From Shigella phage SfII, in the sequence record NC_021857.1: DNA of 41,475 nt; one strand, given 5' to 3'. The position numbers were made by a program. Positions within the stretch are counted from its first letter, which is position 1, and each line of letters opens with the position of its first letter. Shown piece after piece: positions 24,001 to 27,000 of this stretch.

Positions 24001-27000
24001 CAATAGGAATTACAGCATCGCCGCTTGCATGGTCTAACCCTGCAAATAAGGCTGGTTCTTTACCAAAGTTGCGTGTAAATGACAGCGGAACAACTAGCGG
24101 GTCTGAAACAGCCAGCGCGTTAATAATTGACTCTGTGGCATCTTTACTTCCGTCATTTATGAATACAATTTCTACTTCATATGGCTTCAACTCTTGGAAT
24201 TCACGTACCGTTTTATAGAAAACAGGTATCGCTTCTTCTTCATTGAAGACAGGAACGACAAGAGATATTTTCATTTCGCATCCCTAAAGACAATGAACTT
24301 TGAATAGACGAAACCGCACACCAGACTGATGGCGGAGAAGGTGATAAGAGTGACTATTGGAGGAAGTGAGCATTTATCAGCTGCCCAACCAACAATCACA
24401 CTCAATATTCCCATAAATCCCACGTAATACATGTAGCGCATCGCTGTAGTCGATGCTTTGAATGTGAATCTTGCATTCGCGAAGAAGCTAAAGCTCACAG
24501 CCACTACGAAACCTGTGAAGTTTGCCAGAGCCTGACTGGTATGTGCGGCATAGATACATACACCAAAAACCACCCAGTGTATAAGTGTGTTCAGCACACC
24601 TATAGATGTGTACTTTACAAATAACTTTAACATTTATTTAATCAATGAGCTCTGAAAGGCATGAAGTCTATCATCCAAGTCTCAATTGATCGATACTTGC
24701 TATGTCTGATGAGACAAAACTGAGACACATAAGGCCTCACAATGGCTTGCAAGGCTTTACATGTTTTGATGTGGTGGGACGTGTGAGCGCAGTGTTGATG
24801 GGATAATCCTTTGAATTACAAGCGGATTCTTATAATTCGTAATGCGAAGGTCGTAGGTTCGACTCCTATTATCGGCACCATTTAAATCAATAAGTTACAC
24901 ATCATTAGTACCTTCCTTATTTTTTGACTGGGACAAATTTGGGACCGATGGGTTCAGGATCGAGTCTATTTGCCGTGCATGTTCGGTAAGGTGATTAGGT
25001 GCGAGGTGAGCATATCGACGAACCATTTCGATAGACTCCCAGCCTCCCATTTCCTGTAACACTGACAACGGGACTCCGGCTTGAACCAGCCAACTTGCCC
25101 AGGTGTGTCTCAAGTCGTGAAATCTGAAATCATCAATACCTGCTCGTCTCAGCGCCGCTTTCCAGGCTGTGTTTGCGTCATACCGCATCTTCCTGACCGT
25201 TGGCGCTTTCGTTCCGTCTGGTTTGGTACAGCTTTCCTTGTAAACAAATACCCAACGGTGATGATTCCCGATTTGTTTTTTCAATACGCGACATGCAGTA
25301 TCATTCAGCGCAACGCCAATTGCGCGGTTTGATTTACTCTCTTCCGGGTTTATCCATGCCACCCGGCGCTGCATATCTATTTGTTGCCATTCAAGGTTGA
25401 TGATGTTCGAGCGTCTTAAGCCTGTTGCCAGTGCAAATTCAACAACAGACTTTAATGGCTCCGGACATTCATCAATCAGCCTTTGTGCTTCATGGGGCTC
25501 CAGCCAGCGGATCCGTTTATTCTTTGGTTGAGGCACTTTAATAATTGGTGCCTTATCCAGCATTTTCCATTCACGCTCTGCGGCTCTTAGTAGGGCCTTT
25601 ATAAATGAAAGATGCGTAGCCTTCGTTGCAACGGACGCTGGTTTTGGCGTGTATTCTGGAACAGGTTTCCCTTTTTTTCTGCATGCTTCTGCCCTGAGTT
25701 TCCAGTTTTCCTCATGACGCCGGTTCGTCATTTTCTGCATTGCTGAATAAATTTTTGATTCAGTGATGTCTCTTAGTTGCATCCCTGCGAAATGTTGAAG
25801 CCAGAATCCGATCCGGCTTTTGTCATCGTCCAGTGATTTCTTATGTGCTTTCTCTTCGAGCCACCTGACACACGCTTCCTCAAACGTCATATCAGGTATT
25901 TCACCAAGTTTGCTGACCCGCCATGCTTCAGCCTTTAGCTTGTCATGGAGCTCTGTCGCCTGCCTTTTGTCCTTTGTTCCAAGAGACTGTTTAAATCTTT
26001 TACCGTTCGGCAATGTGAAACTGGCGTACCATATTTCACTTCTGCGGAAGAGTGACATTTTCTTTCCTCTGTTATGCCATCACCCGCGCTCACCTGGACA
26101 GTATGCAGCGGAGACTGAAGAGCCGCAATGCAGGCTTGTCGTGTTGTGAGGTAAGGAGATTTATTCTTAGTGGGATCTTTGCGTGTTGCCTGAAGACGCC
26201 CTGTGCGTATCCAGTTAATGGCAGTCGGTCTGGATATCTTGAGAAAATGACAGGCCTCATCGAGTGTGAGGCTGTATGGCTCCATTATTTCACCTCTTGT
26301 TGTGACATTGTTGAAAAATGGATACCAGCTCGTTGCTGCCAGACGATCCATCCGAGAGTCATATCCCATGCCATGTATTCGTTATCGCCGTTTTTTGCTC
26401 TCCGACGATCTACTAAGTCACCGAAACGCTTTTCCATGAATAATTCATAAGCTTCGCGTTCATCTGGTTCTACTTCCAGAGATAGGAGTGCGATTTCATA
26501 AGCACGGCGCTCAATATCGTCTCGCACGTCAAGGCTGCTGATACGCTCTTTAATTTCTTTAATCAGTTCTTTGTCGGTAAAAGTGGTCATTATGCTCCAG
26601 CCTCCGGTGCTTTTGGCATTACTGCCCAGTGAGTGATATTGACGTTTTCAAGGTCCCCGACCTGAAATGTCCACTGCCATTCTCCGGTTTCTTTTTGTCC
26701 CCAGGTGTACCAGAGAGAACGCCAGTCAATTAGCCAGCCTTCTCCGTTAGCATCGAATAACAAAACACTTTCATTTGCTGGTGGCAGTTCAGTTGACACT
26801 GGTATTACTTTGTTTTCCTGTGCTGCACATTTAGCTTCAAGCGCATCGAATTTACGCACCAGGTATTCAGCATCTGTTTCATTCACTTTCAGATCTCGCG
26901 GTACACATCTCCCACGAAGAAACCCTTCCATTTCGAAAACATTCATGCGCATTTGCGTAACTCCGATAACTCGTTAAAACGTTCCATAAACATCCCGTAG

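What the first reader, a model, noticed from the sequence alone, without database searches (positions are those of the whole stretch)
24835..24880. attP core is the 3' 46 nt of tRNA-Thr (thrW); the window is a phage-form (unintegrated) genome
ATTCGTAATGCGAAGGTCGTAGGTTCGACTCCTATTATCGGCACCA equals the 3' part of thrW as I recall it, placed 14 bp from the integrase stop so that integration regenerates the tRNA. Only one copy of the core occurs in the window, and the tail and int modules are on either side of it in circular-permutation order, so this is attP rather than attL/attR of an integrated prophage. The window also starts and ends at gene boundaries (HNH stop at 41475), as expected for a genome record linearised at the packaging site.
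Basis: partly seen in the sequence, partly recalled or inferred. Interest (0 to 1): 0.45.

Follow-up and report, generated by a model that had tools for sequence, protein, structure and literature searches.

The report
Phage SfII attP in thrW
The 46-base stretch is the known integration site (attP core) of Shigella phage SfII, a copy of the last 46 bases of the host threonine-tRNA gene thrW that lets the phage insert into that gene without destroying it; this is correct but already published.

Summary
Confirmed, and ordinary. The 46-mer is at 24835-24880 (+), occurs once, and equals positions 31-76 of E. coli tRNA-Thr(CGU) (thrW, next to proA). It lies 14 bp from the stop codon of a convergent P22-type tyrosine integrase, with gtrA-gtrB-gtrII on its other side. 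In complete E. coli lysogens the window's two arms are split exactly at the borders of the 46-mer. The int side is joined to the 5' part of thrW, giving attL and an intact tRNA. The gtr side is joined to a second core copy and host DNA, giving attR. The window's last and first bases are contiguous in that prophage and in related phage records, so the window is a closed phage-form circle with no host flanks. Its length (41,475 bp) and G+C content (49.17%) match the published SfII genome, and the SfI paper prints this same 46-mer as the attP core of SfI, SfII, SfV, SfX and P22.

Two corrections:
- The record is cut just after the HNH stop codon, 65 bp before the 10-nt cos end (66-75), not at cos itself.
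- The 46 bp is an identity block. Strand exchange is probably confined to the 7-bp anticodon loop (24836-24842), and the rest restores the tRNA.

The parts
24835..24880 (+). attP identity block ('core'): 46 nt identical to positions 31-76 of host tRNA-Thr(CGU), thrW
   Evidence: Single exact copy in the window. Identical to thrW in E. coli. Present as two copies bounding prophages. Printed as the attP core in PMC3636060.
24829..24849 (+). Probable recombination core proper: 7-bp imperfect inverted repeats CTTATAA and TGCGAAG flanking the 7-bp anticodon-loop sequence TTCGTAA (24836-24842), the inferred overlap or crossover region
   Evidence: AF021347.1 annotates these 21 bp as 'attachment site attP; similar to P22 attP' (coordinates mapped through). 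TTCTTATA to the left of the block is invariant in 5 phages. The anticodon-loop crossover is inferred from class I integrases (PMC1762012; PMC4383910).
24710..24834 (+). Left (P) arm of attP, on the gtrA side. It carries three TG(A/G)GAC repeats (24710-24715, 24721-24726, 24775-24780), which are candidate Int arm-type sites.
   Evidence: Similarity to the E. coli attR junction and to P22-like phages starts at about 24710. The repeats are conserved in Salmonella and Cronobacter phages. Five of the window's 23 TGRGAC sites fall within 236 bp.
24881..24945 (+). Right (P') arm of attP, on the int side. It has an IHF-consensus match at 24885-24897 that overlaps the int stop codon, and two TGGGAC repeats (24929-24934, 24940-24945) inside the 3' end of int.
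   Evidence: Identical to the attL flank in E. coli. Repeat D1. IHF pattern match. Conserved across phages.
24895..26058 (-). int: tyrosine integrase, 387 aa, P22 type, convergent with the tRNA fragment
   Evidence: Pfam PF00589, E = 5e-48. 90% identical to ST104 (P22-like) Int. Relatives at 81% identity or more lie 14 bp from tRNA-Thr(cgt).
25935..26285 (-). xis: excisionase (recombination directionality factor), overlapping the 5' end of int
   Evidence: Pfam HTH_17. Annotated xis at the same place in SfI and SfV.
21888..24633 (-). gtrA (24271-24633), gtrB (23345-24274) and gtrII (21888-23348): O-antigen glucosylation cassette next to attP. After integration it sits at the attR end of the prophage.
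   Evidence: Pfam GtrA_DPMS_TM, Glycos_transf_2 and Glucos_trans_II. 100% identity to AF021347 SfII.
66..75 (+). 10-nt cohesive-end sequence TGCCCGCCCC (cos), between the HNH gene (41125-41475) and terS (117-620)
   Evidence: Exact match, once in the window. Determined experimentally for SfI (PMC3636060). The SfII paper places cos at bp 59-125.
41125..41475 (+). HNH endonuclease gene whose stop codon ends the record; contiguous with window position 1 in the circular or prophage form
   Evidence: Pfam PF01844. Junction alignment to prophage L090. Adjacent coordinates in ON470584 and ON470603.

Best explanation
The window is the genome of Shigella flexneri serotype-converting phage SfII in its unintegrated, circle-closed arrangement, and 24835-24880 is the common core of its attP site.

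The phage carries a copy of thrW from the last base of the 5' anticodon-stem strand to the CCA end. Its P22-type tyrosine integrase, encoded 14 bp away and reading towards the site, is assumed to assemble on arm sites in about 125 bp to the left and about 65 bp to the right of the block, with IHF. It then recombines attP with thrW (attB).

Strand exchange most likely happens in the 7-bp anticodon-loop sequence at the left edge of the block (24836-24842). Everything 3' of that point in thrW is replaced by the identical phage copy, so the tRNA gene stays intact at attL (proA-thrW-int...). The displaced original 3' part ends up at attR, after gtrII-gtrB-gtrA. Xis directs the reverse reaction.

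Shown here: the sequence identity, the junction structures, the tRNA integrity at attL, and the circular permutation. Inferred: the exact crossover position and the protein binding at the arm and IHF sites.
For: - Identity and uniqueness of the 46-mer.
- thrW is tRNA-Thr(cgt) next to proA, and the 46-mer equals its positions 31-76.
- Full lysogen E. coli YZ22MPE54 (L090): gene order proB-proA-thrW-int-xis...Q-lysis-HNH-terS-terL...tail-gtrCBA-core-host, with two exact cores 38.2 kb apart and only the int-side copy forming a tRNA.
- The four-way attP/attB/attL/attR alignment switches partners exactly at the borders of the block. A second lysogen, E. coli 472, shows the same.
- In 5,426 E. coli genomes, many matches start at exactly query position 251, which is window 24835, and are annotated tRNA-Thr plus integrase. 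469 genomes hold gtrB-gtrA-left arm-core contiguous, with the matches listed ending at or within 18 bp of the core's end.
- Int: Pfam Phage_integrase and 90% identity to P22-type Int.
- 68 of 80 Int relatives in other species are followed by a convergent tRNA. Of the nine relatives at 81% identity or more, seven are followed by tRNA-Thr(cgt) with the same 14-bp spacing; the other two (L012, L013) have the core but no tRNA.
- Arm repeats and the IHF-like site are conserved across Shigella, Salmonella and Cronobacter phages.
- Circle closure.
- Literature: the same 46-mer is given as the attP core of SfI, SfII, SfV, SfX and P22, with attB/attL/attR sequenced (PMC3636060). SfII is 41,475 bp, 49.17% G+C, and was sequenced from fragments of the induced phage's genome (PMC3772137), which matches.
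Against: Nothing contradicts it.

Limits:
- The crossover position inside the 46 bp is not shown by any sequence here, because attL and attR cores are identical in both lysogens examined.
- Arm-site and IHF binding rest on conservation and consensus only.
- The lysogens examined are E. coli carrying related SfV/SfII-type prophages, not an SfII lysogen of S. flexneri.
- In the one S. flexneri chromosome fetched (L012), the core next to int is preceded by another element's arm and not by the thrW 5' half. This fits tandem integration but was not followed to its ends.
Confidence: 0.96

Rival explanations
1. The stretch is attL or attR of an integrated prophage, and the window was cut out of a bacterial chromosome.
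For: Prophage-derived 'phage genomes' are common. The SfI and SfIV records were in fact rebuilt from prophage sequence.
Against: The thrW 5' half is absent: ARAGORN finds no tRNA and no match to the 5' 30 nt was found. There is only one core copy. Phage DNA lies on both sides of the core, gtr to the left and int to the right, whereas in real lysogens these are at opposite ends. The window ends join seamlessly within the HNH-cos-terS region.
Confidence: 0.01
2. The arrangement is attP, but the record was assembled in silico by circularising a prophage at its two core copies (as was done for SfI and SfIV) and was not read from unintegrated DNA.
For: SfI and SfIV were built this way. The record starts at a gene boundary and not at the physical cos end.
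Against: [quoted passage not shown] The window has exactly 8 PstI sites, which gives eight fragments for a cos-joined circle. An earlier independent record, AF021347, is 100% identical across gtrB (3' part)-gtrA-attP-int.
Confidence: 0.05
3. The 46-mer is a decayed phage-borne tRNA gene (a tRNA pseudogene) with no role in integration.
For: Related phages carry tRNA genes: SfI has tRNA-Asn and tRNA-Thr(UGU) downstream of Q. One P22-like record mis-annotates the same spot as a 'tRNA-Ser pseudo'.
Against: Prophage/host junctions fall exactly at both borders of the 46-mer in independent genomes. It is 100% identical to the host gene, whereas a decaying copy would have diverged. It sits 14 bp from int, as in every close Int relative.
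Confidence: 0.01
4. This is the same attP, but strand exchange takes place in the T-loop or T-stem part of the block (class II or 'J' type site) and not in the anticodon loop.
For: The block contains the T arm, and about half of tRNA-targeting islands use that sublocation (PMC4383910).
Against: The block starts one base before the anticodon loop, which is the signature of anticodon-centred sites. The phage-specific bases just left of it (TTCTTATA) are invariant in five phages and form an imperfect inverted repeat with TGCGAAG around the loop. The SfII and P22 annotation places the 21-bp attP there. In class I phages the crossover has been mapped to the 7-bp anticodon loop (PMC1762012).
Confidence: 0.07

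Closest known systems
attP of Shigella flexneri serotype-converting phages SfI, SfV, SfIV and SfX (thrW-integrating)
   Same: Identical 46-bp core, the same 14-bp spacing to int, the same gtrABC-attP-int-xis order, and 98-99% nucleotide identity across the region.
   Different: Only the serotype-specific gtr gene (gtrII) and the flanking IS and acyltransferase cargo differ. The att module is the same.
Salmonella phage P22 attP/attB (thrW) and P22-like phages (ST104, S9-5)
   Same: Identical 46-bp core. Int is 90% identical. The arm repeats TG(G/A)GAC and the IHF-like site are conserved. The arms are about 80% identical from window 24710 onwards.
   Different: P22-like phages are podoviruses with headful packaging. 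They have an extra 80-110 bp between gtrA and the conserved P arm.
Phage lambda attP (POP') / Int / Xis / IHF
   Same: Heterobivalent tyrosine integrase. int reads towards att and xis overlaps int. The complex attP is about 240 bp with arm sites on both sides. The prophage is a circular permutation of the virion map. Basis: general knowledge, plus the introduction of PMC2951348.
   Different: Lambda's 15-bp core lies in an intergenic attB (gal-bio), not in a tRNA gene, so no gene restoration is needed. The arm-site sequences are unrelated.
DLP12 / epsilon34 integrases (argU-integrating)
   Same: Same Int family at about 73% identity, with a convergent tRNA just after int. Epsilon34 has a 43-bp block identical to argU (PMC2629481). 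An 80-bp piece of the window's P arm matches DNA at 584,287-584,366 in E. coli K-12 and in many other E. coli genomes; that this lies near the end of DLP12 is my recollection of the K-12 map and was not checked.
   Different: The target is tRNA-Arg(UCU) and the core sequence is different. The SfI paper's remark that DLP12 shares the thrW core is not supported, which place that Int clade at tRNA-Arg.

Membership tests
P22-type tyrosine-integrase attP targeting thrW (anticodon-centred tRNA site) | Adjacent tyrosine recombinase with a catalytic domain, closely related to P22 Int | tested here: met
   PF00589, 163 bits. 90% identity over 387 aa to ST104 Int.
P22-type tyrosine-integrase attP targeting thrW (anticodon-centred tRNA site) | Phage block identical to the target tRNA gene from the anticodon stem-loop to the 3' end | tested here: met
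   46/46 identity to positions 31-76 of tRNA-Thr(cgt).
P22-type tyrosine-integrase attP targeting thrW (anticodon-centred tRNA site) | Lysogens show attL and attR with the phage arms separated exactly at the block, and an intact tRNA at attL | tested here: met
   L003 and L090: two exact cores, a tRNA only at the int side, and arms swapped at the block borders. Population-wide breakpoints are seen.
P22-type tyrosine-integrase attP targeting thrW (anticodon-centred tRNA site) | Excisionase (RDF) gene next to int | tested here: met
   116-aa HTH_17 ORF at 25935-26285 overlapping int, annotated xis in SfI and SfV.
P22-type tyrosine-integrase attP targeting thrW (anticodon-centred tRNA site) | Arm-type Int sites and an IHF site in both arms | tested here: inconclusive
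   Clustered, conserved TG(A/G)GAC repeats (3 left, 2 right) and one WATCAANNNNTTR match at 24885-24897. Protein binding cannot be tested here.
P22-type tyrosine-integrase attP targeting thrW (anticodon-centred tRNA site) | Strand exchange within the 7-bp anticodon loop | not testable with these tools
   The cores at attL and attR are identical, so no marker reveals the crossover. It is inferred from the block's left border, the 21-bp annotation and class I precedent.
Shigella phage SfII genome (KC736978) | Length 41,475 bp, G+C 49.17%, cos within bp 59-125 | tested here: met
   One search gives 41,475 bp, 49.17% and the cos 10-mer at 66-75. Compare PMC3772137.
Shigella phage SfII genome (KC736978) | Carries gtrII and the published SfII int-attP-gtr sequence | tested here: met
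   100% identity over 1,715 bp to AF021347.1. Pfam Glucos_trans_II. The KC736978 record itself did not appear among the listed rows of the phage-collection searches, so it could not be aligned directly.
Genome record linearised at the physical packaging (cos) ends | First and last bases are the cohesive ends | tested here: not met
   The cos 10-mer is at 66-75 and the record begins right after the HNH stop codon. The SfV and SfIV records start at window 59 and SfI at window 76.

The most novel reading that the evidence does not exclude
The similarity between attP and the host site may not stop at the tRNA's CCA end. An 'AAATCAAnnAnTTA' motif, which is an IHF-consensus match overlapping the int stop codon, recurs just downstream of thrW in an empty site and in an attR flank. 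In some E. coli genomes 18 further bases are identical to the phage. If this were a functional host-side element (an IHF-assisted, 'complex' attB) and not the scar of earlier elements at this hotspot, the P22/Sf family would depart from the simple-attB rule of lambda-type systems.
Probability: 0.07. Interest if true: 0.3.

Novelty: already known. Interest (0 to 1): 0.07.

Why it matters
It matters little as a discovery. The site, its 46-bp core, its thrW target and the phage genome itself are all published (PMC3636060, PMC3772137, GenBank AF021347). It has practical value as an annotation check. It fixes the orientation and ends of the prophage form: thrW-int at one end and gtrII-gtrB-gtrA-core at the other. 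It explains why the serotype-converting gtr genes sit at a prophage end next to host DNA. It also gives exact junction strings for finding SfII-type lysogens in Shigella and E. coli genomes.

Tried and rejected
- ARAGORN and Rfam on the window found no tRNA or other RNA family, so the fragment is not a gene.
- I searched for a second or partial core copy in the window and found none.
- I looked for markers that would map the crossover. The attL and attR cores are identical in both lysogens examined, so the sequences are uninformative on this point.
- I tried to read Williams 2002 (PMC100330) and the SfV genome paper (PMC134923). Neither is held, so class I crossover and cos are cited through PMC1762012, PMC4383910 and PMC3636060.
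- I expected thrW next to int in the S. flexneri chromosome L012. Instead there is a core preceded by another element's arm. I read this as tandem integration and did not follow it further, because the locus holds only 7 kb.
- The promoter scan around attP gave nothing.
- The inverted repeat I2 (24813-24822 / 24829-24838) was considered as a core-type site. I left it as possibly chance.

Full report
**Observation.** The 46-mer ATTCGTAATGCGAAGGTCGTAGGTTCGACTCCTATTATCGGCACCA is at window 24835-24880 on the + strand. It is the only match on either strand with up to three mismatches, against none in 100 shuffles, and no 12-mer of it recurs in the window. ARAGORN finds no complete tRNA in the window and Rfam finds nothing. 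It is therefore a gene fragment, not a tRNA gene.

**Surroundings.**
- To the right, 14 bp away (24881-24894), is the stop codon of a 387-aa ORF on the minus strand (24895-26058). It has a full Phage_integrase domain and is 90% identical to the P22-type Int of ST104.
- A 116-aa HTH_17 protein (xis, 25935-26285) overlaps the start of int.
- To the left, also on the minus strand, are gtrA, gtrB and gtrII (21888-24633). Beyond them are an IS, an acyltransferase and tail-fibre genes.

**Identity with thrW.** In complete E. coli genomes, ARAGORN calls a 76-nt tRNA-Thr(cgt) directly downstream of proA (L003 19971-20046, L004 2471-2546). The 46-mer is identical to positions 31-76 of this gene: the last base of the 5' anticodon-stem strand, the anticodon loop, and the rest of the gene through CCA. 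To the left of the block, the phage and host sequences are unrelated.

**Junctions in lysogens.**
- *Population view, int side.* A 546-bp query centred on the site matched 5,394 of 5,426 E. coli genomes. Many of the listed matches start at exactly query position 251, which is window 24835, and are annotated 'tRNA-Thr | integrase'.
- *E. coli 472.* thrW is followed after 14 bp by an int pseudogene whose flank is identical to the window's right arm (attL). A second exact core lies 12.4 kb further on. It is preceded by about 125 bp that are 97% identical to window 24710-24834 and followed by unrelated DNA (attR).
- *Population view, gtr side.* A query covering gtrB (3' part)-gtrA-left arm-core found 469 genomes with the whole stretch contiguous. 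The matches listed end at or within 18 bp of the end of the core.
- *E. coli YZ22MPE54.* This strain holds a complete SfV/SfII-type prophage in the order proB-proA-thrW-int-xis...Q-lysis-HNH-terS-terL...tail-gtrC-gtrB-gtrA-core-host. It has two exact cores 38.2 kb apart, and only the int-side copy is part of a tRNA.
- *Four-way alignment.* Aligning the window's attP, this strain's attL and attR, and an empty attB shows the partner switch exactly at the two borders of the block.

This is direct sequence evidence that the block is the common core of attP, attB, attL and attR, and that integration leaves an intact thrW.

**Phage form.** The window has a single core, with phage DNA on both sides and no host sequence. 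Window 41475 and window 1 map to adjacent bases in phages ON470584 (19292/19291) and ON470603 (19315/19314). The joined end-to-start sequence aligns without a gap to the HNH-terS intergenic region of the YZ22MPE54 prophage. The window is thus a closed circle opened between HNH and terS, and relative to the prophage it is permuted at attP.

The window is 41,475 bp with 49.17% G+C. Those are the figures published for SfII (KC736978), which was sequenced from cloned PstI fragments of the genome of the phage induced from S. flexneri 2a NCTC 4 (PMC3772137). The int-attP-gtr region is 100% identical to the older SfII record AF021347. The window has eight PstI sites, and the paper reports eight fragments, as expected for a cos-joined circle.

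**Correction on the ends.** The 10-nt cohesive end determined for SfI, TGCCCGCCCC (PMC3636060), is at window 66-75. The SfII paper places cos at bp 59-125. The record is therefore cut at the HNH stop codon, 65 bp upstream of the physical end, and not at the packaging site itself. The SfV and SfIV records start at window 59 and the SfI record at window 76.

**Anatomy and likely mechanism.**
- *Extent of attP.* Similarity to P22-like Salmonella phages and to E. coli attR junctions starts at about 24710. Conserved sequence continues to about 24945, inside the 3' end of int. That gives an attP of about 236 bp.
- *Arm repeats.* The hexamer TG(A/G)GAC occurs five times in direct orientation: 24710, 24721 and 24775 on the left, and 24929 and 24940 on the right. 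That is five of only 23 copies in the whole window. All five are conserved in Shigella, Salmonella and Cronobacter phages. I take them to be Int arm-type sites (inference).
- *IHF-like site.* One IHF-consensus match (24885-24897) overlaps the int stop codon and is also conserved.
- *Core proper.* The older SfII record annotates as attP only 21 bp, which map to window 24829-24849. This reads CTTATAA-TTCGTAA-TGCGAAG: two imperfect inverted 7-mers around the 7-bp anticodon loop.
- *Crossover.* For class I tRNA-targeting integrases the crossover has been mapped to the anticodon loop (PMC1762012; PMC4383910). The most likely mechanism is therefore lambda-like recombination with strand exchange at 24836-24842. 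The other 38 bp of identity serve to rebuild the 3' part of thrW. The crossover position is inferred and not shown, because both lysogens have identical cores at attL and attR.

**Family context.** Of 80 Int relatives in other species' genomes, 68 are followed by a convergent tRNA: 21 tRNA-Thr(cgt), 35 tRNA-Arg(tct), 6 tRNA-Lys(ctt), 2 tRNA-Met(cat) and 4 tRNA-Thr(tgt). Of the nine relatives at 81% identity or more, seven have tRNA-Thr(cgt) at the same 14-bp spacing; the other two, L012 and L013, have the core at that spacing but no tRNA. This matches the published picture of P22-like phages at thrW and of epsilon34 and DLP12 at argU (PMC2629481).

**What is already known.** The SfI paper prints this exact 46-mer, shows attP, attB, attL and attR experimentally, and states that the core is identical in SfII, SfV, SfX and P22. 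The SfIV paper uses the same 46-bp site. GenBank records for SfI and SfII annotate it.

**Verdict.** The finding is correct in observation and in interpretation, with two small refinements: where the record is cut, and identity block versus crossover region. It is not new. Interest is low.

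Noticed in passing
window 20221-21526: An insertion sequence of about 1.3 kb lies between the acyltransferase gene and gtrII. It has 22-nt terminal inverted repeats (20221-20242 / 21505-21526, 91%) around a 396-aa DDE_Tnp_1 transposase ORF (20308-21498). The SfII paper lists transposases among the SfII-unique genes.
   Followed up: partly
window 39323-40314 (-): An IS3-type element remnant (HTH_Tnp_1 ORF 39976-40314 plus a short 208-aa rve ORF 39323-39949) sits between the lysis region and the HNH gene.
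   Followed up: partly
window 18806-19855 (-): A 349-aa Acyl_transf_3 protein lies just downstream of the tail-fibre assembly gene, near the gtr cassette. It could be a second O-antigen-modifying (acetylating) conversion gene, and the SfII paper lists an acyltransferase as unique to SfII.
   Followed up: no
L012 4179-4450 (Shigella flexneri SFBU1023, CP182556.1) and L013: Int is 99% identical and the exact core lies 14 bp from its stop codon, but there is no tRNA. Upstream of the core is neither the thrW 5' half nor the SfII left arm. Instead there is a diverged P-arm-like stretch about 170-230 bp away. It looks like a junction between two elements integrated in tandem at thrW, with the displaced core reused as a secondary attB. 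E. coli 472 likewise has a second integrase gene about 160 bp after its attR core.
   Followed up: partly
window 24881-24898; L004 2547-2575; L090 attR flank: The first 18 bp of the phage right arm (TTTAAATCAATAAGTTAC, which includes the IHF-like site) resemble the host sequence just after thrW in an empty site and at attR. They are 100% identical in some E. coli genomes whose match to the window is confined to thrW and these 18 bp (matches 251-314 and to position 999). This could be either a scar of earlier elements or a real extension of att homology.
   Followed up: partly
window 24734-24755 (-): A conserved stem-loop (GCCTTGCAAGCCATTGTGAGGC) lies in the left arm, downstream of int across attP. 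Its position recalls lambda's sib retroregulator, which integration separates from int. The T-run is weak.
   Followed up: no
L006 5687-7518 (E. coli ES9 chromosome, NZ_CM184323.1): A P22-like prophage shows gtrCBA-core-int contiguous (the attP arrangement) inside a chromosome, flanked on one side by host genes after Q. Three of 5,426 genomes cover at least 80% of the attP query; of these only ES9 was inspected. It could be a rearranged or partly deleted prophage, or one inserted by another route.
   Followed up: no
window 24713-24792; E. coli K-12 GM4792 584287-584366: An 80-bp piece of the P arm, including the TGAGAC repeats, matches DNA in E. coli K-12 and in many other E. coli genomes at 96-97% identity. 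Strain N47 has a longer match (arm plus core plus 18 bp, 91.5%) in a region that contains ompT. From my recollection of the K-12 map this lies between appY and ompT, near the end of cryptic prophage DLP12, and would be an old attR arm of the same Int family; neither the position nor that reading was checked.
   Followed up: no
L009 1372-1463 (Salmonella phage S9-5, MW722521.1): The deposited record annotates the attP core region as a 92-nt 'tRNA-Ser-CGA-pseudo'. It is the thrW 3' fragment of attP, so this is a mis-annotation.
   Followed up: partly
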